Positions 19,367 to 53,007 of a stretch of DNA of 64,000 bases are shown here, piece by piece (positions within the stretch are counted from its first letter, which is position 1; each line of letters opens with the position of its first letter). The translations under genes were made by a program, and so were the position numbers. Below the pieces are notes generated by a model that worked only from the letters and a program-made list of their open reading frames with translations, did no database searches and was not told the origin of the DNA. This stretch comes from Lingula anatina (taxonomy: Eukaryota > Animalia > Brachiopoda), in contig CM120641.1 in the NCBI GenBank assembly GCA_051362555.1, positions 47,312,401-47,376,400 on the forward strand, written 5' to 3'.

Positions 19367-19443
19367 AATCAAATCAAATCAAATGTTTAGATTAAATAAT
19401 AGTGGTTCTTTGCTATGACGATTATTTTGGACGTGTTCACAGT

Positions 19444-25284: not shown

Positions 25285-26034
25285 CTATATCAGGATTTTC
25301 CCCAGCAACACTATGCTAAGGAATCCGATGAGGTGTAAGGACAGTGAGCAAGATGCGCTCATAGCTGCCCTTTTAGAATTGCATTCGTCAACGAGTTCGC
25401 TGTCTTCGTTGCATTTGCTTTCCTTGCAGCAGCATTGGCAGCTTTCTGCGGTATACTGACATTCGTTTTTCTCACAGGTCATTTTGCTGTTAATGTAGGA
25501 CTTACAGCCCACCGTTATCCGTTTAGGCGATTTGTCTCCAGTGGTGTAGTTCACAAACAACTGAAACATAATTAAGACAATTAATTAAGCTTCTGATAGC
25601 CGATGTGGGCAATAAACATTTCACTGAATTACTGATGTGACGGTGTATACCTTTTCTTTTATAGTGCAGCAGTGGCCAATGTATGCATGTTGAATGGTCT
25701 ATTTTAGCAGCAGTACAATGCTCAGTTCGAAACACGTAGGAAGTTTGGTCTAACATGCAAGTCAAATGAGGTATGGACGATTCAAGACAAAAATACCAAG
25801 TAACCTAATAAAGGTATTACAATTACGTACCCAACAGATATCCGACGAGCACGTGTCGGTGATATTATGCAATTCTTCTGATTTTGTTGTGGTGCCCTGA
25901 GTGCAAGTAAACTGAAAGTTGAAATTAATAACAAATGTCAGCAAGAGTATGTCCAGTAATTCGTGATATTTTCTTTAGCATTTGTCATACAGATGATTAT
26001 GTGATGGCGGTGAACACGTGAAGAAGAAGAAGAA

Positions 26035-26078
<44 letters not shown>

Positions 26079-28328
26079 AAAATTAACTCTATTATATGAC
26101 TGAAACGCGAAAAAAGAAGATAACAACCTTTCCAGATTTGGGTGTAGTCCCGCCCTTTGTTGTTTCTGGCTGCGTGACACCACCCCCCGTGCCGGAGGTG
26201 GTCATTTGGGCCGTGGGTGGTGGAGTCGGTGCTGCACTGCCGGTACTGTTGGACGGGGCGGAGCTAGGAGTTGTGGATGAAGCGCCCTGTGATGATGTTA
26301 ATGGCGGCACTGATGACGGAGCTGATGGTGGCGTTGATGACGGAGCTGATGGCGGCACTGATGACGGAGCTGGTGGTGGCGTTGATGACGGAGCTGATGG
26401 CGGCACTGATGACGGAGCTGATGGTGGCGTTGATGACGGAGCTGATGGCGGCACTGATGACGGAGCTGGTGGTGGCGTTGATGACGGAGCTGATGGCGGC
26501 ACTGATGACGGAGCTGATGGTGGCGTTGATGACGGAGCTGATGGCGGCACTGATGACGGAGCTGATGGTGGCGTTGATGACGGAGCTGATGGCGGCACTG
26601 ATGACGGAGCTGATGGTGGCGTTGATGACGGAGCTGGTGGCGGTGCCGATGACGGCGCTGTTGGCATTGCTGATGACGGCAATGACGATACAGTAGTCGA
26701 AATGGGTGTCAAAACTGAAGACGTAGGGAGTTGTGTCGTATTTGTTTCCACTGTATCAGTTGCCGAACTGCTTATCACAAGTGGAGATGCTGTTACCATT
26801 GTATTATTTGTAGTGTTTATCGCTAATGTTGCATTCTGGCAGTGTATTACTGTGAAAATATAAATCAACAATTCTGGTTAATAAAATCTGTAAGACGTTG
26901 GTTGGAATAGATAAATTGTGTTATTTTATAGGCCTATATTTTTAAATATTAAAATCATTGAGATGCGTTGTGTATCTTCTTTGACCTACATGATTGCAAC
27001 CACGCCGTTACTTTACTATCGATAAGAACCATGAAGTACACTTTTAATAACATCGTCAAGGTGGGGCTAATGGCACAAAATATAAAATAACATGAGCCTA
27101 GACTACATTTGCACCGTGCGCTTTAAAGCGTATTTTCTGTACGATTTATTTATTTATTTATATCGTAAGAAGCTACGGGCTACGGCAAGTACGTTTTCAT
27201 TAATTGCGGGTCCCGTGGTATTTCTATGACATGACCTTGAGAACACGTAGGGAAAAATCGGCGGTCGGTTGAACAGTGATCGCACGGAGCCTTCACAATT
27301 TCAGTTGAGTTGTTGCACGCCTTCAGTGAGGCTTCCTTGAAGGTCGACGCGTTTTTTGTACACCCCCTATTATTTTAAACACCCATGGAATCAGAGTACT
27401 CTCTGACCACAGGGTGCACTAGTAGTCTGTTACAAAAATTGCTGATAACGGTGTGATTTTGTATAGTATTTAAGTGGGGCTCTGATACCAGAGGGAAGGA
27501 TCAGAGTAAAGAAAAGCACAACTTCATGCAAAATTCATGCAAGTGAACTTTTCTAAGTTTTAAACTTCTTTGCTATTTTATCTTTACCTCCTAAAACCAT
27601 CAAAGGTGTAAGGGAAGAGACCAACAACAGGTTCAATCATTTACACGGTCACCGCAAGCCCACCGAACAATACCCGTGAGGGAACTGTGCGATTCCGTCT
27701 ACGATAATGCTACGGCATACGGGCTTACGAATTTTAAAATTTGTAAAAAGTTTAAGCTTTGCAAAATCGTAGAGGTTACGGATGACTTGAATCCGTTTGA
27801 TTTTGTTCGATTCCGCGCGGCCACCGCCCGCCTCTATACAGACGCCGCACGAAAAAGGATTACTGGCAGTATACGAGCACCGCAAAGACAAATGTAATCT
27901 AGGCTTAAGAATTTTATTCGGAGATAATCAGAAAATACTTAGAAGCAGTCATAATCTGATATTTTTGATATCCGTAAAAATAGGCCAAACATTTATCACA
28001 CTGTATAAAACTCATGTTTGTACAGAGATAAGTTACAAGACAGTTATATACCATTCAGTTTTTTTCAATCGACCCCCCCCCCAAGAAAAAAAGAAATGCC
28101 AAACTCATATTTGTTTTGTCTTTTTACTACAAAAAACTTGTTCATTGTGAAATCAATTATTTTCAGTACAGTTGCAAATTACATTAATTGCATGAAAACC
28201 ATTGCTTGTGTTTTATATACTTTGTAAAACACGTGTGTTATCTAAAATCCATTCCAGACCGTCTTACCTCCGAACAGTGCCACAAGGACGGTCAATGTCA
28301 CAGTTGTTCCCGTAGTCATGGTGACCAT
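25285..28328 (-). CDS. Mucin-repeat plus three-finger domain protein, predicted GPI-anchored, 379 aa (cluster gene B)
   Basis: Exons 28328-28268, 26849-26128, 25911-25831, 25560-25285 in frame: signal peptide MVTMTTGTTVTLTVLVALFGVIHC, Pro/Ser/Thr region, domain FTC...CSSDICW...CQCCCKESKCN...DEC, hydrophobic tail LSLHLIGFLSIVLLGKILI. Confidence 0.88.
26300..26660 (-). repeat. Coding tandem repeat, 24-bp subunits alternating in a 48-bp period (PSSTPPSA/PSSVPPSA)
   Basis: TGATGACGGAGCTG(A/G)TGG(T/C)GGC(GT/AC) repeated about 14 times inside the mucin exon of gene B. Confidence 0.93.
27095..27905. mobile_element. Non-autonomous DNA transposon (~810 bp) in intron 1 of gene B
   Basis: Terminal inverted repeats AGCCTAGACTACATTTG / CAAATGTAATCTAGGCT (16 of 17); second diverged copy at 16200-16596; no transposase ORF. 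Confidence 0.8.
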
Positions 28329-28880
28329 ACTTGACCTTATTTACCTGAAGAAGATATGATAAATACGTACAAGATTAAACTATCGGTTATCTGAGTTTTA
28401 GATATGAGAACTATAGATATGTTCTTTATGCATCTGCATGCAGCTCTTAGATTGCAAATCCCACATACTAGAAATTCGTGTATTTTCTTCAAACGAATCG
28501 TTGATACTTGTACAAAAATAAAATGAATTACAAAGGTATATAAAGTTACATGCACGAGTAGGTTCATTCAATAATGATTAATTTGTGACAATGATAAGAA
28601 AAATTAAAGTTGAAAATTTTTCAAAATTGTAAAAAGCAATATGATAAAAGCTTTTAAAACATCGCATAGTGTACTAGCATATCGAAAAGTATGACATTAG
28701 CCTTTGGAGTGTATGTAGACACATGTTAAATCTGTCTCACATTTACCTAGAGACAACTAGTATTGCTACTTTTTGATGACACAAATGAAGACGACGACTA
28801 CTTCAGCAAAGTAGGTAATTTTATGTTTTTTAGATGCTCTTCCCATATTGTTGTAGATCCATGAGTGAAATTCCTATCCC

Positions 28881-28882
<2 letters not shown>

Positions 28883-28957
<75 letters not shown>
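28883..28957. repeat. Compound (CT)n(CA)n microsatellite
   Basis: Direct reading; related TC/GA tracts at 19325-19362, 26041-26077, 33684-33743, 52969-53004 and 59868-59930. Confidence 0.9.
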
Positions 28958-28959
<2 letters not shown>

Positions 28960-29550
28960 TTATACTGAGCTCGTGAATCCGAAGTGACATGGCATACACA
29001 AATCTTGTTTTCTACCTCAGCATTGCTTAATCGATATTTTTTCCCGTGACATGCCATTGGCTGGTTCTCGTTATGTCAAGAGGGTATCCTTTATTTCTTT
29101 ACTGTATTTCCCTCTTATCTTATGCAAACAAAACCTTTAATATCAGGTAGTTAATCATGCTTTATGTTCACATTTTATGGAGTTTTGATTGAATCCGAAT
29201 AGATCTGCCAGACACACTCACTACAGCTAGAGGGCGGTGCGTGGTGTTTCCACAGTCTCACACGGGTAAGCCTTCCATTTGGTATAACGATGTGTGTCGT
29301 GTGTGTTAGCTTGCCTTCACTCAGGGACAACGCTTGTTTGACGCAATTTAATAAATAGCCACGGTTAAGTTTTCATAGATAAAAACATTAAAGGTATCAA
29401 GGTAAATGTTTTCTGATAGACTCTTCTTTAATAAAAAAAATCTGTGTGTTTACCTTCCGGAGACAAACGTATTAAATCATATCTTAATGGAACATTAATG
29501 TTGACAGCTTGAGAAGGCCGGCCGCCGAGGAAACGGCCCCTGTGAAAATA

Positions 29551-29781
29551 TGTCTCGTTTGACGCTAACTTACGGTTCTCAATCTGTCCTAGAACATGAT
29601 GTTTTTCTCTTTTAATGAAAAATGTTCTTTATCTGTTCTAGGACATTCTGAAGGACTTAAAGAAAAAAAAAAACAGTTCTCAAGCTGTTACATTCATTAC
29701 AGAACAACATTAGAACTGTAAAAAGATACACCAAATGTTCTAGAATAGATTGAGGAGTGTAAGTGAACGTTAAACGAGACA
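29551..29781. mobile_element. MITE with ~47-bp imperfect inverted arms
   Basis: TGTCTCGTTTGACGCTAACTTACGGTTCTCAATCTGTCCTAGAACAT pairs with ATGTTCTAGAATAGATTGAGGAGTGTAAGTGAACGTTAAACGAGACA. Confidence 0.8.
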
Positions 29782-31315
29782 ATGAGGGGGGGAGGGTCAA
29801 TAAAAAGCCACTAAATGTATGCTATCGACATTGGAATAAAATAAACATAAAAAAATACCAGAAATATAATTTGTCCATTGTATACCAGAGCAAGCCTCTA
29901 GATTGCGACATCTGCGAAGTTGCACAAACAACGTCTGATCTATCGTTTTTGTTTACATTAAGAAGTGTCAGAGATAGCGTTTAGTACCATCTAACAACGC
30001 CGACTGTGTGAGCGTGTTCTACCACACAGATTGCTACCTGCACATTGAAGTATTGTGTCAAGCAGTCATAGCTCTGATGTCTAATTTCTGGATTCTCATT
30101 TATTATATACTTCTGTTCAATTTCTTGATTCCTATGATTACGCGCGCTGGCTGCTGCAAAGTTCATTTATACAAAGTAGAAAATGAGCCGTATACAAGCG
30201 TATTAAAATATCACATGTGTACTTACTTCATGTATTAAGTAAGGTAACAATTATATGTAAGTGGTATTAATATGTCAAAGTATGCTATTCAGTATTATCC
30301 TTATTGTATACATGTATATAATACTACTCTTCGTAGATTAGTGGGCCAGCAAATGTCAAACCATGTTCACATTTGGTGCTCAATGAATATAACTATTTTA
30401 AAATTATAATATTACATGATTTAGATACACCATCCGATTAAGTACCCCACTCTTACAAAGAGGCCGATACTGAAGCTGTAGACAAAAATGAAGACATTTT
30501 GTTTCTTGTAAACTGACTTGAAACAATAATTTATAACATCAGTAGAACAATGAAGAAAGGCCACGACATCCCTTTTGTTAAAAAATATGAACGAACAATG
30601 ACCAAAATTCAGGAAATTCTAACATAGAAAAGTCACATTCTTCATATGACTATACATTCATTAAAGATGATAAGAATCCTTTAATTCCATTTTATCACCT
30701 CCCTTTTTTATTTTCATATTTGTTTTGCCTTTGACGTAATGTTATTGTACACAAACCGCTACCGTATGTACCATTTATTGCTGATATACTTGACTCAAGC
30801 GTGCAATAAAGACGTTTGCCACGACAACAAAAAATAGACAAACTAGTCGGATCCACCCACTGTAAAAATTGTGGCTCATCAGCCTTTTTCCTTCGCTAGA
30901 GATGACCCTATTCCCAGTGTTAAAGCGCATGCCACAGAATGCTGGCAGCGGTGTTATTTCATAAGGAAGTCCTTTTTGGGATACATTAACCCGAATCAAT
31001 ATCCACTTAGGACATGAAAACACTGACATCAAGGTTAACAAACGCATCTCATATATTATGATAGGAAGAAGCGCAAGAAAACAATTGTTCTTAATTAATT
31101 GAATCAAAATACAGAACATGTAGCCTGTAATTCAACCAAAGTAAAGCGACTTAAAATACTGACAACTGTCGTACTTAATATGAGTAACAATCCGTTTGTG
31201 ATTACTGAAATGAAAGAAAAAGAAAATGTTTTTATCTATTTATTTTTGTTTATTTTCCTTTTTATCCTTTTCGTGTGAGTGAAGATAAAACGTGTTCTAT
31301 GGCAAGCCTCAAATA

Positions 31316-31960
31316 TTAGCCAAAAGTAAAAGAAGAAAGTTTTTTCTGTCGAGTTTCATTTTCTAATATAATAAAAAAAAAAACACATTTCTTCGAACGT
31401 ATCTCTTCGAGAGATAATATGTGAACAACGAAAGTTAATCTTTTTGATATTAACCCAAGCTGTTTCAGCGTAATTATCCAAACAAAAGTAAAAGAACAGA
31501 GACACAGTTTTTTCTGTCGAGTTTCATTTTCAGTCAATTTTGATAGACTATATTTTAGTTTCTCCTGATTCTTCCAAACTTTTAAGTTAAATCAATGAGA
31601 CCTAAGAGAAATTAAAGATACTCAAGCACGAGGCACTACAGAAAACCTTGATTATCACTGAAAATCAAATTAAATGTTCCAGTAGATTATAAGCCAAATT
31701 TTGGGTTAAAACAAATAACAGGAACTACTTTTAATTATTTTTGATACACACTCCATAGCTAATTAAGTTTAAATTTTATCTATGTAGAGAACCTAATTTG
31801 AAATTTTTGATGAAAAGATTCTTTTCTTCAAATATTTCAAATTAGGTTCTATAAAAATTCTCATATAATAAAAAACATATTTCTTCGAACATATATCTTC
31901 GAAAGATATGTGAACAACGAAAGTTAATCTTTTTTATGTCAACCCAAGCTGTTTTCAGGG
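31316..31960. repeat. Local direct duplications and a 63-bp palindrome
   Basis: 31366-31470 resembles 31863-31960; 31320-31363 resembles 31480-31531; 31788-31850 (AGAACCTAATTTGAAAT...ATTTCAAATTAGGTTCT) is a near-perfect palindrome. Confidence 0.75.
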
Positions 31961-33683
31961 TGAATCTACGTAACGTTTATCATATGATAATAAGTGGTAA
32001 CTAAAAAACATCTTACCGAATTAATCCAGAATATACTCTTCTCGTGTCTTCTCTTTTGTTGTCAAAGCTGTATTAACGACAACCACCACAGCGTCTGATA
32101 CCAGTGTTTCCTGATAAACCTTGTTGCCATGGTGAAATCATAACTTTATCGTGTTGGCGAGAATCATAAGATATGACATGAGGGGGCACCTGCAGCGTGA
32201 CCAAGATGTCCAATATGACATGTCGGTATCTTAATGACCGTATTGAACATAGTATAAAGACTTTTCTTCATTGTTGATTTTTATTATTGTGTCCAATTTG
32301 TATGGGATATTAGATGAGATGAAATTGGACATTTAGAAAAGGGACATGTGCTTCCTTACAACGTCAGGCAGCACAGTTCAGTCCACATTTAATTTAAAGC
32401 TCAATTTCAAACCATGCAATGATTTCGTGCTGTCGAACGTTTAATAGTACTATGAATATCAATTTTAAAACATCGGTCTTATAATTCTAGTAGAAAATGA
32501 TGCATTTACTTAGCGGATAACCAAATAGGTTCTGGCACCTTCTACTATAGACAGAGAGTGCCCTCCTCGGGTTTTCCGTTCTCCGAACTAATCAAGTGTT
32601 CTTATACCAGTTGAAGAGTCACCACGCTGCGTAATAAAGATAAGATCTGTCGGACAGACAGCTGGCTGTTCAGTGGGTTTATATGGATTAGTTCACAGCA
32701 ACAAGGATGTACTTATGAGGGACTGCTTTTGGTTTCCAAAATAAACCGAAGATACGAATTTATTTTTTCATTATTTTATCTGAATATTTATCAAAAGATT
32801 ATCTCGATAGATCCAGAGTCCAGATCCGTATGCCCTCTTCGCTCCATGGAGGGAGCAGGGTGGGGGGGTGGGGATAACTTAGGGCCTGGATCCCAGGCTG
32901 ATCAAAAGCCTTGCATTGATAAACAAATGTCACACACGACATCATTATTTGGACATTTGGCATGATCAGTCACTGGGGTATGGGGGTTAGGGCGTGGGGT
33001 ACAAAAAGTAAAGTAAAATCTCTGATGTTTGTCCAGTGACAAATTGGTGATGTACATATTATTGGTATTGGAGCGATGATTTTGCCCCAAGTCCGGGTTC
33101 AAACAGGATGTCCCCGGTTTTGGTACAAATTGATGTCGATACTTCAAAATGTTTTTTTTATGTAGAGACGGATGCTTAAATGTCATAAAGAATAACAAGC
33201 TATATATCAGTTGATGTTTATTGCTCATTTATTGGCGCCATTTTGATATGCTTCAAAAGAACACACAAGACACTTTGCCTAAATTAGCTGAGGAACAAAC
33301 TTCATTTTTTATCGGGCCGTACTGTATACTAGTATATGTCACTCTATAAAAACAGAGACATAATGCTTAAAGGCAAACAGCAGAAACATTGCGACCTTCA
33401 TTCGTGACTTTTAGCCTGTGGTTCAATTGACTTCTATAAAAAAAACCGACACACCATGCCAGAATATGATAGCCTTGAAACTCTTTTGCTTAACTGTGAC
33501 ACAACCCATCCCATCTCTCCACTTGTAAAATACTAACTGAATGGATAATTGTTGTACTCTTTGACCGGGAGATAAAACTGTTGGTCAGGTGGGTTGCAGC
33601 TGCGATGTTAAAGCGGGTACAACTCGCTGCAATGATGTAACCACTGAGAGCGCAACTAACACAATGTCACGTCACTGTTGAAC

Positions 33684-33748
<65 letters not shown>

Positions 33749-34244
33749 GTCTTCTTGTACCTCCACAAACAATTTTGGTCCATCTCTTACTGAATGTTGG
33801 TTTCTGTGAGTTTTTTCTCCTGGATAATGCAATGCATATAAAGCAAATAAAGTCACAAGACTACACATGGTTTTGACACAGAGCTCACTATTCATCTTCT
33901 CTTCTGTCACGTCTGGTCACATATTTCTGTCTTGAAAAGACAACTGTATACATCAACATTAACTTAAATCATCAATATAGAAAATTAAGGTTAACGAACA
34001 ATGTTCTGTTTTATGTTCAATAATTTACATAGTTTAAAATTAACAAGCTATTTTCTTAACAGTATATGACATTCAGTTAATTTACCCATTCTTTACTAAG
34101 TATAAAAATACACTCATAAAATAATTGAAGAGAAGTGCCATACACATTACAGTGTATTTCTCCTACGGTCGTTATCTTACATGGATTCTTTTTATGCAGT
34201 CGGTTATCGGAGATGATCAAATCTATTTCCATGCTTGAAATAGC

Positions 34245-35310
34245 TTACACCTTGTTGATGGTTACCATGGCAACCAATATGGCCATCCACAGGCCAGGTT
34301 GCAAGAGGCCCATGTTCAAGGAAGACGTCGCTGAAGTTGGCGAGGGAGTCGGTGTGGAGACCGTCGAAGTGGTGTTTACTCCCAAGGCCGTTGCCCCTAC
34401 TGCTGTGACTGATCCATTAGCCGAAGTTGTGGCTGTTACAGCAAAATTGAGAAACCCGTAATTAGGTTGTAATCAAACGACCCCCTTATTAATACATGTA
34501 GAACCGGGGACGATTCGAACCGATGCAGCAAATTTTATTTATATTTTTATCTAAATGGCTTACTACTGGTTTAATCGGAAAAAAGGCAAAATAATGCTTC
34601 GTAATAGTTCATATCTTTCAAAGATATCTTACAAAAATGTCAAACTAATTGCTGGATTAAAGCTGGTCAACCATGCCAGTTTTCAAAGTAAAAATTTACT
34701 TGGTGAGAGTATTACGTGTTACATATCACTATCTCACACCAATTTTCAAAGTAGCAAAATAGGCAATAAACGCTTGGCTATCCTATACTTCTATGTGCAG
34801 AAGCGCGTGGGTGGTGAATTTAACAACAAAAAAGGTAGATTTGCTTTTAAAGTGCTCGTTTTTATGGTAATATTATTCAAATAACATTATAAAGGGATAA
34901 CAACCGTTCACTGGGGCCAAAAAAATGAATTTCCCATGGGTAAACGACGATTTCCCATACTTATCAAAAGTTAAAGAATCCGTTCCAACATACGAAGTTA
35001 GTCCCTGTTTTTAACAAAATATTGTTATTTATTTATTTATTTATTTATTTATATTTTTTTATGATCACTAATGATCTAAAATAACGCTAAAAAAAGCTTT
35101 TTTTGCCAATTTTATGTATGCCAAATATAAGGTATTGTAAAATTCACCAGCCCCTATACTGCATTGGCTAAAATAATTTTGTTAGACTTACCGACTGTTG
35201 ATATCGCAGCGGTTGAACTGGAAGCACTCTGGCTGAAGACGCTAACACATGCTAATACTAAAAACAGAAAAATCATCTTTACAATTTTATATTTTAATCT
35301 TTTTCATCAT

Positions 35311-35408
<98 letters not shown>

Positions 35409-35664
35409 GTTATTTATTTATTTATTTATTTATTGTCTTCCACATGCACTAGAAAATAATTTAGTAAAGCCGTTTGTCAATGCTTTGTTTGTTTCAAATA
35501 TTAAAAACAAAATTCACTTCGAAAGAATAGCATTTGAATTATCCCTTTATAACGTTTCATGATCATACCGTCACTAGATTTCAATCTAATTTAACGAAAA
35601 TTCCCCCTGTATCAAGTGTCCACTCACCTAAACAAAACAAGCTCACTGAACGAAGTCTTGCCAT
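34245..35664 (-). CDS. Small Ser/Thr-rich predicted GPI-anchored glycopeptide, 96 aa (cluster gene C)
   Basis: Exons 35664-35628, 35257-35192, 34432-34245 (two phase-1 introns, donors GTGAGT and GTAAGT): MARLRSVSLFCLVLACVSVFSQSASSSTAAISTVATTSANGSVTAVGATALGVNTTSTVSTPTPSPTSATSSLNMGLLQPGLWMAILVAMVTINKV. Not shown in the ORF track. Confidence 0.8.
35315..35403. repeat. (AT)n microsatellite
   Basis: Direct reading; another (AT)n at 38842-38893 and (AAAT)n at 47861-47911. Confidence 0.9.
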
Positions 35665-37339
35665 GATCAGTATCTTATCAGTATATCACCTCCAAGGATT
35701 TGGTCTTTCTGAGGATCTCGACTAAGAACAAATTTTGAGTTCAAACAGCTAAAACACAACAAAATAACAAATATGAAAATATATATATGTAAATGAAAAA
35801 AGTAAGGTGGGTTCCATTCTGTGGTCTCCGTGGATATTTGGCATGCTGTATACACATGCTGCTATCTCCTACCTACTTACTGGTAGTCTAGTTTTGTATC
35901 AACAAACACAAACCAAATGCTTGGGTTACCACATGTATTAAGTATGATTTCACTCCAGCCACCGTAAACCAGTGTTTAGCTTGATAATCCCGTAAATCTC
36001 AGGTCAGTCATTCAACAATCGCATCTTGCTTCGCAACTAAGGCATCAACAAAGTGATACTGCGTAAAGAAATGACTCTCAAGTCAACTCTGATATTTACC
36101 AGATGGATTTATCAGATATAAGGTCGGATTGCACTGTTATATTTAGTATCATATACTTGTACCGTGTGTAAGTCTTAATATAAGAAACAACCACTTCCAT
36201 TTTAATGGTTTTAAACAGGAAAAAGTTAAACTCCGTTTAAATGTTTTAGAATAGAAACATAAACCAATATCTACAAGAGATAAATCAAGTCTAGATTCAT
36301 AGTCAAGAAATATTTTACAACAAATTGTGTAGGTTTTTGCTACTATAAACATCATTACTGAGCGTATGTATCTTAGATTCACAAACCCAATTCTGAATTT
36401 TTTGACATTAAGTGGTACCATAAAATTTTCTATTGAAATATGTCAAAATTAGTGTGCTTTTCGTGGGCAAAGACAAAGACATGTAATTACACCAATTTAA
36501 TCGATAAATAACTGCGGTTGGTATAATTAAAATAAATAAGTCGATCGCACTCACCTGATGCCTAAGATTTCGGTTTTGATCACCAAGTGGCGTGGAAAGT
36601 AAAGTTTCTAAATTCTTGTGACAAAAATGCATTTAGTCATCATTTGTTTATAGGCAACACCAAAACATCCTGATAAAACAAGCTTATCAGCGTGGAGACG
36701 AACGCGGTGTGAACCAATCACGTACAGACTACGGGAACAGCTGAAATTGTTTACCAAGAAACAAAGAAATGTGTATGGAAAACACTTTCGCTGCCGCCGC
36801 CGCTGCGACTGATATGGCCGCGGGTGCTGCGTGATTCTTCTCTGCTTTGTTTTGGACCATAAAGAGATATCTAGTTTTGCAAAAGCCACAAGTTCAACTT
36901 TTGAAGTAGGGTTATTGATGATAGATTTTTAAATGTTCCACATAAAACTTCGTACTTAAAACGCGTTCATGCATCTTAAATGAGTATTTAATTTAGCTTT
37001 TCATTTGTTCCTTTCTCTTGGACATGTACTCGGCACTTGGACACGTCTTCTTCTAGTGGGTGTTGCTAATAGTTTATCAATACACATGGGTCTTAACATT
37101 TGCAGTCTCTCGGCAAACTATTTTTAAGTTGTTTCACTCTTTTGCTTAACGCCAAAAAAACAAAAAACAATATATATATACAGACTTGACATTTAATATG
37201 GAATATTTTTTTCGAAATAATTTTTTATCAGTTTTTTCCTATTTTGCTGACTGATAAATGAAAATAAGGATTAAAATCGTGTTTTAATAACTTTAAATTA
37301 TCTCTTTGATGTCATTGTGACATCAGTTTATTTATGGAA

Positions 37340-38555: not shown

Positions 38556-38837
38556 TCTATGCAGTAGTTGCCGAAATATGGATACTTTTTTGACAGAACC
38601 AAGCTTTGCCTAAGCCAAGCTTTGATCAGCCCAAAGGAACACTACCCAATTAAATCACTGCACATTACATAATGTAGCAGAGCAATAGGCATGAAAGTCA
38701 GTTAATTGGTAGTGACACACCTGACTGCACACTTTTACATTCACAAATCTTATATGAGATCAGATTTTTTTTAAAAAAGAACTTATTTTTACCTAGGTAT
38801 ACCTTCGAAACTGAAATATTCCATATTAAATGTCAAG

Positions 38838-38897
<60 letters not shown>

Positions 38898-39502
38898 AGT
38901 TGTAATATTTTTTAATAAACTTGCATTCGCAAAAACTGAAACTGACTTTATGAAGATATATTCATTTTCAATATTAATAATTATTATTATTGTGACCTTC
39001 ATTCGTGACCTTGATCCAGTGACCTAGTTCAATCATAGAAAACATGACTAAAACATCTTTAAACAATCACCAAAGAAAATACAGTGACACAACACGCCAC
39101 TTACACGATTTCAAATTTTTGCAATGTAAACTTTGTTCAGAAAAACGAAATGCTTTCGGTGAAGTATTTAAGGAATATCCATCAAAACGTTTTCCTCTTG
39201 AACAGGTGACTTTCATTTAGGCACATCAGGCACAGTGACGTCCATGTTGGAAAGATTCACACGCAAAAATACACTCGTACTAACAGCTCAAGTTCACTGA
39301 ATCCGCATGCAACGCTTTTAGAAAACTTCGATTATGTACTTTTTAGTATTACGCTGATATGTAAAAAATAATTTTTCAGTAAAATCCATAATCACAGCGT
39401 TTGTTGATAAAGAAGACGATAAAAACAGTTTTTAAGTTCCATTTTACAATTATTACTTGTTTAGTTCTTGCAAATTGTAAATATCTACTAGTCAGAGCAT
39501 TC

Positions 39503-42500
39503 CTACAATGTCTTCATCATCATGAGTACAAGTATCACCAAGCCCAGCCATGGTGGTGACAGGCGCACCCCTCTACTGCTGGCACGAGCTCCAGCACACT
39601 TATCTTCGAAGTTGTCGTTATTACATCTGTCAGTGCTGCAGCAACATTCACAGGAACCGCTTGCATATTTACATTCACCCTTGTTACACGTCGAGGTTTC
39701 CACTTTCGAGGCGCAACTCAACTTGATTTCGGTCACATCGTCATCTACGTAGGTTGCCAACACCTATAAAAAGGGATGCGTGGGGTATTACGGTTTAAGT
39801 TTTAGTCTGAAAAACTGAATGACTCCAAAACAGAATGCATCATTCAGCCGTGAAACACTTCCTCGAATATTCACTGTTTTCAGTGGCCCTTGAAATGGAA
39901 ACGACAGTCCGATATTCAACATATCTTCTGTGATAGGGCCTATTATTGTTTTGAAATTTGGTCTGTCCTTTCTCCGCATGTCTTGATTTTACAAACTCTA
40001 GTCATCGCACGTTATATTTACTTACAGTACTTGTATATAAGGTAAATGGGTCAATGACGCGTACTGCCGACTGAATTTTTTCTTGCCGTAGGCTACAGTG
40101 CTGATCAAATATACTCACCCAACAAGTGGAGGATTGACAAGAGCCAGAGACATTCTGTGTCCCACTCCAATCAGTTGTGGTTCCGTTTATACAAGTGACC
40201 TTTAAGAAGGAACATTATGGAATTAACAATTTGACAAATAAATGATGATAATTATAATGATGAATAAATTGATAAATAAATTGATGAAAATGGTTAGTTT
40301 TAAAACCACATCCACTGTCTAGCATATATCGGTCAAAGTGGAACTGGAAAAGAGAAAATAACCGTGTATCGGTAGTCTGGGAATAAATATCCCCCGCAAA
40401 GAAAAAAATAGTATGCAGTTTTTCAAGAGATCACGAGTTAAAATGGATAAAAATTTCGACCTTTTTTTTTTTATTACTAAAGGCAATTAATGTTACGAAA
40501 ATGATTAAACTAAAATCTTCAGGTTGTTAGATGCAAATTTACCTAGCGTCCAGATGTTCACGACTCTTAACTACTTACCTTGGCTGCCGGTGTTAATGAA
40601 GTGTCTGAAGTGATAACGGAAGCGGCAGTACCGGATGCAGTGGTTTTGACAGTGGCCTGTGATCCATCACCGCCGGCAGTGGAATTAACAGTGGCTTTGA
40701 TAGGGGGCGCTGTAGTAGTAGAAACAGTGACAGAGGACAGTGGAGTTATAACTGGAGTAGGTGTTGGTGAAGGCTCTGGCGGTCTTGCTAGAAACCACAA
40801 CAGGGAGGCGTTAAGTGTCACATTGTCAAAGAACAAGTTCTGTATCTAAGTCCATATCCATGATTTCTTGAAATATAAAAAGCAATCCTTATTATAAACG
40901 AACGCTTTAAGCCATGCATAAAGTAACTTAAACGAACAAAACATGCATAAAGAACGGGCAGTTAATAGTTGTGTCAGTGTAGAAAAGTTTAACTTGTCTT
41001 GAACTATATTTTCAAAGGATCTAGGGCACTATTCATAATACGCCTAGCAAGAGGATCTCTTTTTCTAAACGTTTAGCGCTAGAAGTGAAAGGGTTAGACG
41101 CAATTACTTGATATTTGTTTAAATTGCAATTTGGGGTGGTAACATCTAAAATTGGTAAAAAAAAGTCGGAATTAAAGAATGTCAATGGAATTTCTCGCAC
41201 ATATTTCAAAATTTTGAATTTTCTATAGAGGAAAAGTAGGCCTATATCTCTCCGGATTAAACTTTGTTAGTTGTAAGAAGTCATGACCTAGATTCACTTC
41301 GTGCAATTTGATGTTGTTACACCGTAAATTTCTATAAAAAAATTCAGATTTTTTCTTAAATTGCCGATTGGCACTGTTCATGTTTATTTCAAAACTACGA
41401 AATTAACATGGGCATTGAAAATTGAAAATCAATAGATTTCATACTGGGCCAATTCCCATTCTACAAAACAAAATCTCTAAAATTTTCGACTTTATCACAG
41501 GACAAAAAATTATTCACAAACAAATAAACTGACAGAGATATAAAATTGCTAACGAAATATATAATATAAAAGATCGACCAAATATAAATTTAGCCACCAG
41601 AGTTGTACTTTTTTGTGTAAAACAAAGGGATAAGAGAGTGCTGGAAATTTGGGCTCTTAACTTGACAGTTAAGTCTTAAACTGCGTTCCCGTAATCTTAT
41701 CGTACTAGCAGGATCAATCGATCTCAGCAGGGATTCTCGCTAAAGCTTAGGTCCCAACTACGTTTTGGACGCACGGTTTTTTAGGTTCCTTGCGGCCGGC
41801 TAGGGGAAGCTAGAACGCACGTAGCGGCTCTTGATCATGTCGAAAAGTTTCTACGTGCTGTTTGCGGCCTCCAAAAGTCGGACGATGGACGTGCTCCTCA
41901 CGCATGAACTCCCACGTTTTCTCCATTTTTTTGGCCGTAGACCACACGTAGCAGCCCGTGCGTTCGGTTGGGACCTAGGCTAAGGTGCAGTCAATGTAAT
42001 CAGCCTGGCGCGCTCCAGCACGTCTGTCTGGCACGCTCACGCAGCAACAGCACCCTCTACCAGGGTCAGAGATTGATTTCACAGGATATTCACAGATATA
42101 TCTTTACATCATCAGTTTTTTCCTATTTTGCTGACTGATAAATGAAAATAAGGATAAAAATCGTGTTTTAATAACTATAACTTTTAATTATCCCTTTGAT
42201 GTCAATGTGACATCAGTTAATTAATTGGATTTCATCTATGCAGTAGTTGCCGACATACATGTATGGCTACTTTTTTAACAGAACCATGCTTCGCCAAAGC
42301 CAACACTACCCAATTAAGAACGCATTTTTACCTAGACAAACCTTTGAAACTGAAATATTTCATATTAAATATCAAGTCTGTAAATAGATGGTCATTTTAC
42401 TATCTCTGGCTTTTCTCATTTTCCCTATATAATCAGCCACCCTGGTAGTGGGTACAGCAACGGCGTGTGTGGAGGTGGGGAGACCATCAGAGAATTAGCG

Positions 42501-43413
42501 CCATCGCTTTTTAACTGGATCGGTTAGACTGCAGATCATCTTTTCTGAATGCACTCCAAGTCAAAGTACCACAAACAATATTTATGAGCATTTGTTAATT
42601 GTCTTAAAGTACAAAACGGCTCTATTTATTAGAAACTCATTCCTCCACTTAAAAAGTTCATTGCCTAAAACTACAAAACGTAATTACAAACTCATTTCTT
42701 TGTTAAACCAACAGATTACTAATGGTCTTTGTGACAGTGTTATCAATTTAATTGTGTTAAACACATCATTAAACCGCGAACTCCCTCTTCACACTCAAAA
42801 TGGGAGTTTAAAATTAAAAAATATTGCCAATCATAATTTATTCCTTATGAAAATCAAATCAGTTCGTCCTGGCCCTATTACCAATCTTCAAAAAAATTGA
42901 AACAAAAATCTGTAAAATTGTTACTTTTATCGCAAGACAAAAATTTAACCACAAATGCACAAACTCGTAAGCGAGCAGACTAATAAACTAATAAGCGATT
43001 TTTTTCACACGTTATGTTATATCCTTGAACTTTTTGTGCTAAAATAGAGTTTTTAGTGTTATCCTACTTTCTTTGCTAGTTTAAAGTTGATGTTCACAAC
43101 ATTTTGCCTTACTTGTTGGTGTTATGGTTGTAGGTGGAAAATAAGGTGTTGCGAGCACTTTATAACAGGTTAAAACTGGAAATGAAAATAAAAACAAACT
43201 TTAAATATCAAGTTTCCAATGAAGGCTAAACATCTTTAAACAACAAACTGATCGAAAGATCTTATGTGCTAATTACTCGAATATTTTCACACTCAGTGAA
43301 AAAACATTTGAAAACATTCCAACATATAATGAGATCAACATTATCATGAGCTAGCAATACAGTATATACGTACCTAAATAACAGCAAAATATGCTGGAAA
43401 TTTGCTGTGCCAT
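39503..43413 (-). CDS. Mucin plus three-finger domain protein, predicted GPI-anchored, 217 aa (cluster gene D)
   Basis: Exons 43413-43374, 43175-43113, 40787-40579, 40199-40119, 39763-39503 in frame: MAQQISSIFCCYLVLTCYKVLA, Thr/Ser/Pro region, VTCINGTT...CQSSTCW...CECCCSTDRCN...DKC, tail PPWLGLVILVLMMMKTL. Confidence 0.88.
41744..41981. mobile_element. MITE (~238 bp) in intron 2 of gene D
   Basis: Termini AGCTTAGGTCCCAAC / GTTGGGACCTAGGCT (14 of 15); GC-rich interior; TAA at both junctions would fit PIF/Harbinger but the duplication is not clean. Confidence 0.75.
42105..42380. repeat. Fused copy of the two flanks of the Tc1 relic
   Basis: 42108-42230 matches 37227-37340 and 42235-42380 matches parts of 38556-38842; the 1.2-kb transposase segment is absent. 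Confidence 0.75.
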
Positions 43414-43903
43414 GATAAAGCTGTGTGGCCTTCGTGTCGGTACCGCCTTCCTGTATTTCTCCACCTGTATTTCTCCAAGACTAAATAAACTAAAATTTAT
43501 AACAGACGAGTGTCATGTGCATTAAACATGTCGGATTCTTATTCGTTCTCTTGTAATACTTATTGCTGTAACTAAGTAACATCCAATTGATTACCAACCT
43601 TTTTTTAATTTGAGAGCCAAAATACAATGCAAACTGTGAACGGAATTTTGGATAAGAAAATGTTATCCATCTGTTATCAAATCCCTCAAAGCCTTAAACT
43701 CAAAACCACTATTGTGTCATTGCATTAATGTATAAGCAATGGCACCAAATCAATCAATTAAGATAATTTTTAAACTGTAAATCAAATTCGTTGTAGAAAC
43801 AAAGTGCAAATACACATTTGTAACAAAAAATTGATAAGGTATTCTTATAAGAATAATATATTGCATATGTGAGAGTCAAGTGGCTGGCTCAAAATATATT
43901 GAC

Positions 43904-43987
43904 TCAAAGAGTGGAGTATTGACAAGAGTCAAAGACATTCTGTGTTCCTATCCAGCCACCTGCTGTTGTTCCTGCTGGACAACTGAC
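43904..43987 (-). pseudogene. Orphan degenerate copy of the first three-finger exon
   Basis: Intact acceptor (TTTTCACAG) then VSCPAGTTAGGWIGTQNVFDSCQYSTL-stop, homologous to 40199-40119 and 46903-46820; the CW codons and donor are destroyed and no last exon follows. Confidence 0.8.
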
Positions 43988-46202
43988 CTGTGAAAATGAC
44001 AATATAGAAAACTTACTTCCAAAAAAAAAAAAATAAATAATAAAGTAAAGGAAAATATATATTTTAATATATTAATTTCAATAGTCAAGAAAGGGTAAAA
44101 TGCTCCGGACACCATAATCTCTAGTCAATATAGAACCAGTTATCCAAACAATTAATGGCATCTTGCTTCGCAACAAAGGCACCAAAAAAGTGATACAGCA
44201 TACCAACTATGATATTTATCAGATGGATTTAGGAGATAAAAGGTCAGATCAAATTTCACTGTTATATTTATTATCATATACTTGTACCATATATAAGTTT
44301 TAATATGCAAAGCTATCACTTCCATATTGGTTTTGGACCAATAAGAAACTAGGAGTAAATGTTTTATCATCTTTGAGAATAAAAATCTAAACCAATGTCT
44401 ACAAGACATACATCAAATCTAGATACATAGTAAAGAAATATTTTATGACAACTTATACAGGATTTTGCTACTATGAACATTGTTACATGTACTTGGCGTT
44501 ATAATTCTTGGATCCACAAGTACTTTTTCTATTTTTTTTTCCACAAAATTAATTTTTTTTTCATCAAAATATTTCAAAATAATTGTACCTTTCATGGTCA
44601 ATGAGACATAATTACATCAGTTTAATTGATTAATAAACGTAGGAAGTTAACTCAAATCGAACAAGAAAGAGTCTCTCACCTAATGCCTAAGATTTCGGTT
44701 TTGATCACCAAATGGCGTGGAAAATAAAGTTTCTAAATTTATGTGACAAAAATACATTTAGTAATCATTCGTTTATAGGCAATACCCAGACTTCCTGATA
44801 AAACAAGCTTATCAGCGTAAAGACGAACGCGGTGTGCACCAATCACGTATAGACTACGAGAACAGCTGAAATTGTCTACCAAGAAACATAGAAATGTGTA
44901 TAGAAAACACTTTCGCTACCGACGCCGTTGCGACTGATATGGCCGCGGTTGCTTCGTGATTCTTCTCTGCTTTGTTTTGGACCCTGAAGAGATATCTAGT
45001 TTTGCAAAAGCCAAGGGTTCAATGTTAACATGTTTAATCTTTTTTGTAGTAGGGTTATTGTTGATATATTTTTATGTTTCATATAAAACTTCGTATTAAA
45101 AACGCGTCCATGCATCTTAAATGACCATTTTATTTAGCTTTCCACTTTCCACTTGATTCACTCTCTTATGCACGTACTCGGTACTTCTTTTAGTGGGGTT
45201 GCTAAAAGTATATCAATACACATTGGTCGTAACATCCTTTCTTTCAAACTATTATATACTTGCTTCATTCTTTTGCTTAACAGCAAAAATAGATTTTCAG
45301 GAATTATTTCATTTTAATTTAGTTTTATTATTTTTTTTATTAAATTGTAATCACAAAACAGGAACTGACTTTAAGATATTTTATTCTATTGATTTTTATT
45401 CATTTTCAACATTAACAATAATTATTATAATAATAATTTATTTGTATTTGGCGCATTCCATTAAAGGCCTTACTGCGCCTTACGATTTAAGAGCTAAATA
45501 TTACATTTAATAAAGATTTTAAATGACATGTTTCACATATGAAATACAAAAACATCATAAACATTTAAATAGCAAAAGTATCAAAATTATATTTTTCTGT
45601 TGAACAGATCGTTAAAATTTTTTACAATAGCTATATTTACAACAATAATGAACGTAAATGTAGTGACCTTCATTCGTGACCTTGATCCAGTGACCTAGTT
45701 CAATCATAGAAAACATGACAAAAACATCTTTAAACAATCACCAAAGAAAAAACAGTGACACAACGCGCCACTTACACGATTTCAAATTCCTGCATTGTAA
45801 AGTTTGGTCAGAAAAACGAAATGCTTCCGGTGATATGATTAATGGATATATATCAAAACGTTTTCTTCCTGAACAGGTGACTTTCATTTAGGCACATCAG
45901 GCACAGTGACGTCCATGTTGGAAAGATCCACAAGCAAAAATACACCTACTCGTGTTGACAGCTCAAGTTCACTGAATCCGCCTGCAACGCTTTGAAAAAA
46001 CTTCGATTATGTACTTTTTAGTGTTACGCTGATATATAAAAATGATCAGTTGTGGTCACCTCGCTTTCTCTTTTGGCGTCAAATCCATAATCACAGTGAT
46101 ACTTTATAAACAAGACGATAAAATACAGTTTCTGAGTTCCATTTTACAATTATCACTCGTATAGTTCTTACAAATTGTAAATATCTACTAATCAGTGCAA
46201 CC

Positions 46203-47864
46203 CTACAATGTCTTCATCATCACGAGTACAAGTGTCACCAAGCCCAGCCATGGTGGTGACAGGCGCACCCCTCTACTGCTGGCACGAGCTCCCTCGCACT
46301 TCTCGTCGAAGTTTTCATTATTACAGCTATCAGTGCTGCAGCAACATTCACAAGAATCATTTGCATATTTACATTCATCCTTGTCACACTTCGTGCCTTG
46401 TTCTTTCGGGGCGCAACTCAACTTGATTTGGGTGACTTCTTTGTCTGCATAGGTTGCCAACACCTATAAAAAAAGACACACGCGGCATTAATTCTAGCTT
46501 AAATGTAGTAACTGAATGATGCCAATGTGGATAGCACCATTCAGCCTTAAAGTACTTTCCAAAGAATTCACTTCTTAAATCATCCACTGTTGACATACCT
46601 AAAAAATGGAAACACATGTCAATCCTAAAAAAAAAACATATCTTTATCCGCATCTTTAAAATAAAGTGTAGACCTATCTTTATTGATAAGATGTTTTTAA
46701 TTTTGGTCGATCATCTCTTGCCATTTTCGACTTCACAAGACACACTCAGTAAAATTAATATGCATAAAGCAAATGGCTCATTTTTCCCGTGTTAAATACA
46801 GCTGATCCATTATACTCACCCAACAAGTGGAGGACTGACAAGAGCTAGAGGCATTCTGTGTCTTACTCCAACCAGTTTTGGTTCCGTTTATACAATTGAC
46901 TACCTGTAAGGAAGAACAATATAGAAAATTTAACTTCCAATACACACCGATAATAAATAAATAAATAAAATAGTAAAATTTTATCAGTTAATCAACATAT
47001 TGTTGGCCATCTAGCCGAGGAAGCGTATGTTGGTCACCAACAGAAGAGAAAAAATAACTATATTTCGGAAGCCTAAGAAGAAATATTCCTGAAATATCTC
47101 ACGACATGATTGATCGTAGATAGAAATAAATATATATTTGGTAAATTGATTTTGAAATTATCTCAAAGAACACTAGTAAATGGCCGAATTCGGACATGGC
47201 ATTTTTGCACATCATTTATGTACTTAGGGCAACATGCTAAAGTTATTGAACGAACATCGGCAAAAAGGCACCTACATATGTGGATGACTGCTAGATGTTC
47301 ACAGCCCTTACATAATTAACTGCTTACCTTTGCTGCCGGAGTTGTGGCGCCTGAGCTTGATGTGGTACTGGAAGCGCTAGCACTCGCCGCTGTACCGGAA
47401 GCAGTGTTTGAGACAACTGACGTGGCTCCGCCAGAGGAAACGCTGCTGCTGCCGCCGCCGCCACCAGAGTTCGTTGTAACAGTACCCAGAGGAGGAGTAG
47501 TTGATGGTGCAGACGATGCTGTAAACAACACGAGATAGTGAGGTATAGCAGAGTCAAAGCGTCAAGAGTCAAGCTGTGTATTTAAATCTTTCTTGCAATA
47601 TAAAGACAATTCTTTATGAAAATTAAGCCCTTTTCCCAAACTATGTAAAAAATATGGACAGTCAACATATGCGTCCCGATGTAAAAATCTGACATAAATA
47701 TATCACTTATTTTTCTTACGTCTAGGGCAACATGGTGCGTTTTAAGACAGTGATGACTTGGCCTAAATGACTATTTTAAAATACGGCCAGAATGGGTAAA
47801 GTGATCTTTGATATAAAAATGTTTGTTGCGAAAATAAATCATTGTATTTCTAAGGAACGAAAAA

Positions 47865-47911
<47 letters not shown>

Positions 47912-48351
47912 GCCAAAGGTTGAAAGAACCAAATCTCCTTTGCAACACAAAAGTTCATGTTAATAACACTTTTATTCTACCTGTCGTTGCAGATGTATCT
48001 ATTGTGGTACTATTTCCGAGCACGTTGCAACAGGCTACAACTGAAAATATGAAAGACAAACTTATCATAGGAAGTTTAAACGATGTCTTAATATTTCTTG
48101 AACACACACACTGAACAAAAATATAATTTTCACAAGTTTTAGGGATGTCCAAATATTCTCTTAATATACGCATGTACAACTGTATAAAAATATCCCTTTT
48201 CATAACCGCTGAATATTCAAATATTTAATTAGGCAATTACAATATATGATAGTCATTTTATATATGTTATTAAAGCAACAAGATCATAAGACGATATCAT
48301 GAACATACATAAACAAATCCAAAATAACATGCTGGAATATTGTTGTGTCAT
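46203..48351 (-). CDS. Mucin plus three-finger domain protein, predicted GPI-anchored, 212 aa (cluster gene E, paralog of D)
   Basis: Exons 48351-48309, 48040-47981, 47518-47328, 46903-46820, 46463-46203 in frame: MTQQYSSMLFWICLFVACCNVLG, Ser/Thr/Gly region, VNCINGTK...CQSSTCW...CECCCSTDSCN...EKC, tail PPWLGLVTLVLVMMKTL. Confidence 0.88.

Positions 48352-52965: not shown

Positions 52966-53007
<42 letters not shown>

What the first reader, a model, noticed from the sequence alone, without database searches (positions are those of the whole stretch)
25285..48351. Kinase-less, GPI-type proteins with an activin/BMP type II receptor-like cysteine frame: candidate decoy-receptor family
Seen: genes B, D and E share a 12-Cys domain, C-x17-C-x4-CW-x16/19-C-x8/9-C-x4-C-x6-C-x-CCC-x4-CN-x7/8-C, followed only by a short spacer and a terminal hydrophobic tail. 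Known: canonical Ly6 domains start CxxC and end CCxxxxCN, whereas ActRII/BMPR2 ectodomains have a single first Cys and end CCCxxxxCN (from memory ACVR2A FCCCEGNMCN and BMPR2 FCCCSTDLCN; gene D reads ECCCSTDRCN). Ten of the 12 Cys fit that receptor pattern; the other two (before CCC and after CN) could form an extra disulfide. Inference: an expanded family of lipid-anchored type II receptor-like ectodomains acting as TGF-beta-family decoys or co-receptors, or a Ly6 branch that converged on this frame. Caveat: of the ActRII aromatic ligand-binding triad only the position after Cys3 (Trp) is aromatic.
Basis: partly seen in the sequence, partly recalled or inferred. Interest (0 to 1): 0.8.

Follow-up and report, generated by a model that had tools for sequence, protein, structure and literature searches.

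The report
Mucin-stalked three-finger proteins in a brachiopod
Three intact brachiopod genes encode small proteins with a serine/threonine-rich stalk and a 12-cysteine domain predicted to fold as a lipid-anchored "three-finger" module; they likely descend from an ordinary Ly6-type neighbour and likely serve as a sugar-coated cell-surface layer rather than as growth-factor decoys, since two of the three key receptor binding residues are absent.

Summary
Genes B, D and E (minus strand, GT-AG introns) encode 379, 217 and 212 aa proteins with the 12-Cys frame, followed by a stop after a GPI-type tail; D and E match Lingula anatina database proteins. The receptor likeness is real but weak: the best solved-structure hit is the BMPR2 ectodomain (E 0.057), B's is a type I receptor (E 0.091), and Pfam finds nothing. 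Against a decoy: only 1 of 3 BMPR2 hot-spot aromatics is present, and the adjacent CxxC Ly6-type gene A has that Trp too. A, B, D and E share two phase-0 introns at matching places, unlike human BMPR2 (phase 1, elsewhere). Loss of the CxxC disulfide is common in LU proteins, and Lingula has about 101 three-finger proteins. Best reading: a Lingula-restricted, fast-changing LU subfamily that converged on a type II-like frame and acts as a glycosylated surface protein (0.6). Working TGF-beta decoy: about 0.1. Disulfides, GPI anchoring and binding were not shown; my structure models failed.

The parts
25285..25560 (-). Gene B last exon: Cys4-Cys12 of the domain, GPI-type tail, stop
   Evidence: no RNA junction seen
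25831..25911 (-). Gene B finger-1 exon (Cys1-Cys3, ends C-x4-C-W), phase 0-0
26128..26849 (-). Gene B mucin-like exon, Ser/Pro/Thr-rich, with a 24/48-bp tandem repeat at 26301-26679
28268..28328 (-). Gene B signal-peptide exon (phase 1)
34245..35664 (-). Gene C: 96-aa Ser/Thr-rich GPI-type protein without the Cys domain (exons 35664-35628, 35257-35192, 34432-34245); signal peptide resembles D/E
   Evidence: signal similarity reached by 9 and 2 of 1000 shuffles; no RNA junction seen
39503..39763 (-). Gene D last exon: Cys4-Cys12, GPI-type tail, stop
   Evidence: P0001
40119..40199 (-). Gene D finger-1 exon, phase 0-0
   Evidence: reads join a D-like copy of it to an E-like last exon
40579..40787 (-). 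Gene D Ser/Thr/Pro-rich exon
43113..43413 (-). Gene D signal-peptide exons (43413-43374, 43175-43113)
43907..43987 (-). Dead copy of the finger-1 exon (Cys3 lost, in-frame stop) upstream of D's first coding exon
   Evidence: 23-25% different from D/E exon
46203..46463 (-). Gene E last exon: Cys4-Cys12, GPI-type tail, stop
   Evidence: P0002
46820..46903 (-). Gene E finger-1 exon, phase 0-0
47328..47518 (-). Gene E Ser/Thr/Gly-rich exon
   Evidence: 5' junction in 6 reads
47981..48351 (-). Gene E signal-peptide exons (48351-48309, 48040-47981); a 5' UTR exon lies near 49775
   Evidence: junctions in 11 and 3 reads
21775..23106 (-). Gene A (outside the finding): 182-aa Ly6-type protein with CxxC start, 12 Cys, CC-x4-CN, hydrophobic tail; exons 23106-22998, 22675-22623, 22397-22293, 22056-21775; same two phase-0 introns as B/D/E
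   Evidence: no RNA reads and no database copy found

Best explanation
B, D and E are tandem paralogs that encode a signal peptide, a Ser/Thr/Pro-rich stalk, a 12-cysteine domain predicted to be a three-finger (LU) fold and a tail predicted to be a GPI signal; they likely descend from a Ly6-type gene like neighbour A and likely work as glycosylated cell-surface coat or recognition proteins, not as TGF-beta traps. Shown: gene structure, Cys frame, stop after the hydrophobic tail, splicing of part of E, shared intron positions with A, and loss of two of three hot-spot aromatics. Inferred: the ancestor lost the finger-1 (2-3) disulfide and carries two extra pairs, probably Cys6-Cys8 across finger 3, as in BMPR2/ACVR2, and Cys7-Cys12 tying finger 3 to the C-terminal linker. 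The stalk would be O-glycosylated and project outward as a brush, while the disulfide-locked domain would sit at the membrane as a protease-resistant base whose variable loops contact a partner. The likeness to type II receptors would be convergence on a small fold with few ways to place cysteines. Origin is better supported (about 0.7) than the surface-coat function (about 0.45).
For: Introns: in A, B, D and E the finger-1 exon starts in phase 0, 2-3 codons before Cys1, and ends in phase 0 directly after C-x4-C-W (4 of 4 genes). Human BMPR2 exon ends are c.76, c.247 and c.418, all phase 1, and the intradomain one splits codon 83, just before core Cys4 (derived from table passages of PMC3163544). 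Vertebrate LU genes are generally phase 1 (PMC6600238 passages), so this layout is a shared local trait. Gene A scores 9.5 bits on the B/D/E profile, reached by 9 of 2000 random sequences with its Cys frame; its domain alone (8.0 bits) is reached by 4 of 500 Cys-fixed shuffles. A also has the Trp after core Cys3 and the same 17-residue Cys3-Cys4 spacing as D/E. Hot spot: W, K/A/A, Q/E/E at the Y67, W85, F115 positions; PMC9234707 passages say these aromatics are critical for binding. Loss of the 2-3 disulfide 'often occurred' in LU proteins, and LYPD6 has a finger-3 disulfide like type II receptors. The Atlas model of P0001 residues 103-192 matches quiver (TM 0.71), LYPD6B (0.69), activin type I receptor (0.68) and PSCA-like (0.64) about equally. 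Lingula has 101 three-finger proteins (PMC13719153). No relative outside Lingula among 1.84 billion representatives (the one other hit, P0003, is a cysteine-free repeat protein). D and E differ at 26 replacement and 10 silent sites in 81 codons, dN/dS 0.56. Gene C has a D/E-like signal peptide, a Ser/Thr-rich body and a hydrophobic tail but no domain.
Against: The B/D/E profile scores BMPR2 (17.1 bits) above gene A (9.5 bits), and BMPR2 chains are 4 of its 5 PDB hits; no Ly6 chain appears. D/E spacings 17/8/4 and the CCC-STD-x-CN end are close to BMPR2's 17/9/4. Gene A's model has no RNA or database support, and the introns of Lingula's own bmpr2 and acvr2 were not examined. Pfam gave no LU-clan match for either side. 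Both AlphaFold2 models failed (pLDDT 41 and 43), so disulfides are inferred only. No glycosylation, GPI or tissue data; the stalk-to-domain junction was not seen in reads. The B/D/E domains fail the CxxC criterion for canonical Ly6.
Confidence: 0.6

Rival explanations
1. The domain is a duplicated BMPR2/ACVR2 ectodomain that acquired a GPI tail and a mucin stalk, then lost ligand binding and took up a surface role.
For: Best PDB hit is BMPR2 (E 0.057); 2 of 2000 and 0 of 2000 frame-only random sequences reach that score. Ten of 12 Cys map on the type II pattern. A TGF-beta receptor II cluster ranks second by Atlas features (0.79). A partial acvr1 duplication is reported in Lingula, so receptor fragments do arise there (PMC13121700 passage).
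Against: E-value not significant and picked as best of 177,635 sequences. B's last exon prefers a type I receptor, BMPR1B (E 0.091), and E's domain alone hits no receptor. Intron positions match gene A, not human BMPR2. The Cys6-to-CCC loop is 8 residues against BMPR2's 16. bmpr2 is described as single-copy in Lingula.
Confidence: 0.17
2. The proteins are working lipid-anchored decoys or co-receptors for BMP/activin-family ligands, whatever their origin.
For: Type II-like Cys frame, Trp at the Y67 position, no kinase, GPI-type tail. AMHR2 binds through an aliphatic rather than aromatic hot spot and TGFBR2 through an edge strand, so the triad is not the only mode (PMC9234707 passage).
Against: W85 and F115 positions hold Lys/Ala and Gln/Glu in 3 of 3 genes; hot-spot variants of BMPR2 lose binding. 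Paralogs diverge quickly (B is 35% identical to D over the last exon), with no relatives outside Lingula, whereas the BMP ligands are single-copy and the toolkit conserved. A bulky N-terminal stalk would sit over the domain.
Confidence: 0.1
3. They act in cis on a membrane receptor or ion channel, in the manner of quiver/sleepless, Lynx1 or LYPD6, with the stalk as a regulatory disordered arm as in GPIHBP1.
For: Quiver (TM 0.71) and LYPD6B (0.69) are among the top Atlas structure matches; QVR and UPAR_LY6 clusters are the best named feature hits for D's last exon (0.89, 0.87). GPIHBP1 and SP-10 show that an extra N-terminal disordered exon can serve partner capture (PMC6600238).
Against: Scores are below the tool's bar for naming a family. 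Conserved modulators usually keep orthologs across phyla (my knowledge); none were found. The stalks are neutral Ser/Thr/Pro-rich, not acidic.
Confidence: 0.13

Closest known systems
Single-domain GPI-anchored Ly6/uPAR (LU) proteins, including Lingula gene A, quiver and LYPD6/6B
   Same: Signal peptide, predicted three-finger fold (TM 0.64-0.71), terminal C-x4-CN, hydrophobic tail, tandem clustering, domain split over two exons with the tail in the last; same introns as gene A.
   Different: No CxxC start (2-3 disulfide lost); CCC end; two further Cys; N-terminal mucin-like stalk; no Pfam match.
BMPR2 / ACVR2A ectodomains
   Same: Single first Cys, CCC-x4-CN, spacings 17/8-9/4, aromatic after core Cys3.
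   Different: No membrane helix or kinase; W85 and F115 equivalents missing; loop before CCC 8 against 16 residues; 12 against 10 Cys; introns differ from human BMPR2.
GPIHBP1 and SP-10 (ACRV1)
   Same: An extra exon encoding a disordered N-terminal segment in front of one LU domain (PMC6600238); GPIHBP1 is GPI-anchored.
   Different: GPIHBP1's arm is acidic; these are neutral Ser/Thr/Pro-rich, with a different Cys frame. No homology implied.
BAMBI
   Same: Kinase-less three-finger protein of the TGF-beta receptor neighbourhood.
   Different: BAMBI is a conserved, single-copy gene already annotated in Lingula, type I-like with a membrane helix (recalled); these genes are not it.
Kinase-less nematode proteins annotated 'Activin types I and II receptor domain'
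   Same: Small (118 and 142 aa) proteins in which Activin_recp matches 64% and 36% of cluster members with no kinase family listed: receptor-like frames without kinase are not unique.
   Different: No sequence link shown; no mucin stalk.

Membership tests
LU (Ly6/uPAR, three-finger) superfamily | Three-finger fold | tested here: inconclusive
   Atlas model matches only three-finger or unnamed clusters, TM 0.60-0.71 in 10 of 10 rows; own AlphaFold2 models failed and Foldseek found nothing.
LU (Ly6/uPAR, three-finger) superfamily | Core Cys 1,4,5,6,7,8,9,10 and Asn after the tenth Cys in 60-90 residues | tested here: met
   All eight positions and CN present in 3 of 3; pairing inferred.
Canonical Ly6 (10-Cys) family | C1-x-x-C2 start (2-3 disulfide) | tested here: not met
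   Single first Cys in B, D, E; met by gene A. Criterion from PMC4492491 passages.
Canonical Ly6 (10-Cys) family | Pfam CL0117 match (UPAR_LY6, QVR, Toxin_TOLIP) | tested here: not met
   No match up to E 10 for last exons, full D/E proteins or D/E domains; B could not be scanned whole.
GPI-anchored proteins | Signal peptide, small omega residues, spacer, hydrophobic end, no cytoplasmic tail | tested here: inconclusive
   Rule-based scan gives 4-5 candidate sites per gene and tails with 1 charged residue in the last 16; no GPI predictor or experiment.
TGF-beta type II receptors (BMPR2/ACVR2) | Membrane helix and Ser/Thr kinase | tested here: not met
   Stop in the domain's own exon; no kinase motif downstream; no strong donor inside D/E last exons, two donor-like sites in B's, both inside the domain.
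TGF-beta type II receptors (BMPR2/ACVR2) | Aromatic hot spot Y67/W85/F115 | tested here: not met
   1 of 3 positions aromatic in each gene.
TGF-beta type II receptors (BMPR2/ACVR2) | Type II Cys frame (no 2-3 bond, extra finger-3 pair, CCC-x4-CN) | tested here: met
   Ten Cys align, plus two extra; frame described in PMC6600238.
TGF-beta type II receptors (BMPR2/ACVR2) | Activin_recp or ecTbetaR2 profile match | tested here: not met
   No Pfam match; PDB profile hit to BMPR2 only E 0.057.
TGF-beta type II receptors (BMPR2/ACVR2) | Shared intron positions | tested here: not met
   Against human BMPR2 only; Lingula receptors not tested.
TGF-beta decoys / pseudoreceptors | Binds ligand or receptor and lowers Smad signalling | not testable with these tools

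The most novel reading that the evidence does not exclude
A brachiopod-specific family of GPI-anchored BMP/activin decoys or co-receptors, born from a type II receptor ectodomain or converged onto it from Ly6, that bind ligand through a remodelled surface and are tuned by mucin stalks of different length. It would be a lipid-anchored type II counterpart of BAMBI and a living intermediate between Ly6 proteins and TGF-beta receptor ectodomains.
Probability: 0.1. Interest if true: 0.7.

Novelty: new variant of a known kind. Interest (0 to 1): 0.27.

Why it matters
As most likely read, it is a modest addition: an undescribed Lingula LU subfamily that Pfam misses, with a mucin-first architecture and a cysteine frame that mimics BMPR2. 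It shows that CCC-x4-CN plus a single first Cys does not diagnose receptor ancestry, and that intron positions can separate the two. If the domains did bind BMP or activin, they would add a new class of modulators to a brachiopod BMP network described as conserved and mostly single-copy (PMC13121700 passages), and would bear on how Ly6 proteins and TGF-beta receptor ectodomains are related.

Tried and rejected
No whole genome was held, so Lingula's own receptor genes and other paralogs could not be examined. Pfam: no relevant family in 4 scans. Protein searches: only P0001/P0002; none at 38-154 aa; none for gene A at 164-2000 aa (lengths below 164 not searched for A); B is not in the hits. P0003 rejected as chance. 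AlphaFold2 with a 3-row alignment and with a single sequence gave pLDDT 41 and 43; Foldseek on both was meaningless; the wide structural search could not be run. No co-folding job was sent: no BMP/activin sequence was available. No indexed RNA holder was listed; raw reads gave nothing on A, B or C, which is not evidence of silence. Positive selection between D and E was not shown (dN/dS 0.56; 0.70 without Cys codons, Fisher p 0.37). Tail similarity of C to D/E was not significant (61 and 85 of 1000 shuffles), nor were signal or tail similarities of A to B or D. PDB hits of gene A's exon to PRDM9 zinc fingers and WDR5 rejected as chance; its three-finger hits are weak (E 0.36-4.1). Ten literature searches listed no paper on this family; the supplement of PMC13719153, which lists the 101 Lingula proteins, could not be read and may include these. 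Three supplement files of PMC13121700 held no match to the accessions or to BMPR2/ACVR2. Earlier-findings look-ups by sequence and by the decoy wording returned nothing.


Full report
Setting. The window is animal DNA with spliced genes. No whole genome was held. A search with the last exons returned two proteins, P0001 and P0002, named Lingula anatina. They read the same as my models of genes D and E. The cluster lies on the minus strand between a homeobox gene (Pfam Homeodomain E 1.6e-13) and a sodium:solute symporter (SSF E 2e-05).

Observation. B (379 aa), D (217 aa) and E (212 aa) have open spliced frames with GT-AG introns. The stop follows a hydrophobic tail in the same exon as Cys4-Cys12. 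A rule-based scan finds 4-5 candidate GPI attachment sites per gene; no predictor was available. A scan for four kinase motifs gave one match, upstream of E. RNA reads from 4 of 9 listed runs show three E introns and the finger-1 to last-exon junction, the last in a diverged allele or paralog. The junction between stalk and domain was not seen. Four of 9 runs showed no junction for A, B or C.

Between signal peptide and domain each protein has a Ser/Thr/Pro-rich stretch: 239 aa (67%) in B, 82 aa (55%) in D and 77 aa (55%) in E. In B it includes a 24/48-bp repeat. Gene C, between B and D, is a 96-aa Ser/Thr-rich protein with a D/E-like signal peptide (9 and 2 of 1000 shuffles) and a hydrophobic tail but no Cys domain. 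A dead finger-1 exon lies at 43907-43987. Gene A, just downstream of B, is a 182-aa protein with a CxxC start and CC-x4-CN end, which meets the Ly6 criteria given in PMC4492491 (passages).

Fold. Pfam found no LU-clan or receptor family. My two AlphaFold2 models failed (pLDDT 41, 43), though both placed strands where fingers 2 and 3 are expected, and Foldseek on them found nothing. The Atlas's own model of P0001 (whole-protein pTM 0.45, pLDDT 0.60) matches quiver (TM 0.71), an unnamed nematode cluster (0.71), LYPD6B (0.69), an activin type I receptor (0.68), PSCA-like proteins (0.63-0.64) and kinase-less nematode Activin_recp proteins (0.63). The three-finger fold is therefore likely, but the fold does not choose between Ly6 and receptor.

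Evidence for receptor likeness. A profile of the three domains has BMPR2 as 4 of its 5 PDB hits (best 17.1 bits, E 0.057). Spacings 17/9/4 and the C-terminal motif agree closely with D/E; the loop before CCC does not (16 against 8). Random sequences with BMPR2's Cys frame reach that score in 2 of 2000 (background composition) and 0 of 2000 (own composition) trials; one interval of that frame was recalled. This null ignores that BMPR2 was the best of a library and that all three-finger domains share a strand pattern. B's last exon prefers BMPR1B, a type I receptor (E 0.091); E's domain alone hits no receptor. Gene A scores lower on the profile (9.5 bits) but also above its own nulls (9 and 0 of 2000; 4 of 500 Cys-fixed shuffles for the domain alone). 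Sequence alone leans slightly to receptors and is not decisive.

Evidence against receptor ancestry and decoy function. (1) Introns. In 4 of 4 genes (A, B, D, E) the finger-1 exon begins in phase 0, two or three codons before Cys1, and ends in phase 0 directly after C-x4-C-W. Human BMPR2 exons end at c.76, c.247 and c.418 (table passages of PMC3163544); by arithmetic all are phase 1, and the intradomain one splits codon 83, just before core Cys4. Vertebrate LU genes are generally phase 1 (PMC6600238 passages). Two matching phase-0 introns in adjacent genes point to common descent of A and B/D/E. The limits: A's model is unconfirmed, and Lingula's receptor introns were not seen. (2) Binding surface. 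BMPR2 and ACVR2A bind through Y67, W85 and F115, and interface variants lose binding (PMC9234707 passages). B/D/E have W, K/A/A and Q/E/E there, and gene A has the same Trp, so that Trp is no sign of receptor ancestry. (3) The frame is reachable from Ly6. Deletion of the 2-3 disulfide 'often occurred', and LYPD6 has a finger-3 disulfide resembling that of type II receptors. (4) Tempo. No relative outside Lingula was found among 1.84 billion representatives. B is 35% identical to D over the last exon. D and E differ by 17% in the domain part of the last exon against 4% in the tail and 8-13% in the 3' UTR, with introns near saturation; dN/dS is 0.56, with no proof of positive selection. Seven read differences listed in E's last exon (among 40 of 196 rows shown), four of them D-like, would change four loop residues if on one haplotype. 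Lingula's BMP ligands and bmpr2 are described as single-copy (PMC13121700 passages).

How it most likely works. Inferred: the protein is secreted, O-glycosylated along the stalk and attached to the outer membrane by GPI. The domain is locked by six disulfides: the four core pairs, a cross-strand Cys6-Cys8 pair in finger 3, and Cys7-Cys12. It would form a stable base, with variable loops for a partner that changes fast, and the stalk would add a hydrated brush. Gene C, which has a stalk-like body and tail without a domain, suggests that the stalk alone has a use in this cluster. I put the Ly6 origin at about 0.7, this overall reading at 0.6, a receptor-derived but non-binding origin at 0.17, a cis-acting receptor or channel modulator at 0.13, and a working TGF-beta decoy at 0.1.

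Comparison and novelty. They belong most likely to the LU superfamily but fail the CxxC test for canonical Ly6, and they fail the kinase, hot-spot, profile and intron tests for type II receptors. An extra disordered N-terminal exon before an LU domain is known from GPIHBP1 and SP-10. Lingula is reported to have 101 three-finger proteins (PMC13719153; parts 1-3 of 4 of the text read; its supplement could not be read, and may list these). PMC11595613 and PMC4595640 were seen as passages and add only context. Ten searches listed no description of this subfamily. Verdict: a real, lineage-restricted variant of a known kind; the decoy-receptor idea is not excluded but is unlikely. Interest 0.27.

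Noticed in passing
window 5280-10465: A 73-copy tandem array of a 71-bp unit, 98% matched, upstream of the plus-strand exons at 12300-14640 and probably in an intron of that gene.
   Followed up: no
window 12300-14640 (+): Last exons of a gene that I recall as DNAJC13/RME-8-like; one exon scanned gave no Pfam match, so the name is recalled.
   Followed up: partly
window 19440-20950 (-): Spliced homeobox gene of paired-like appearance (Homeodomain E 1.6e-13; class recalled).
   Followed up: partly
window 17300-18191 (-): An open frame of at least 296 codons with no assigned family, downstream of the homeobox gene.
   Followed up: no
window 36017-37158 and 44154-45289: The upstream regions of C and D, with a probable 5' UTR exon, are 76% alike over about 1.2 kb: C and D likely share a duplicated promoter.
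   Followed up: partly
window 40116 and 46460: Reads in two runs join a D-like finger-1 exon to an E-like last exon with several further differences: a chimeric allele from gene conversion or an extra paralog.
   Followed up: partly
window 40839-43031: Five reads of one run skip 2191 bases of D's intron with 29 other letters in place: likely an insertion polymorphism.
   Followed up: no
window 52200-59190 (-): Sodium:solute symporter family gene upstream of the cluster (SSF E 2e-05).
   Followed up: partly
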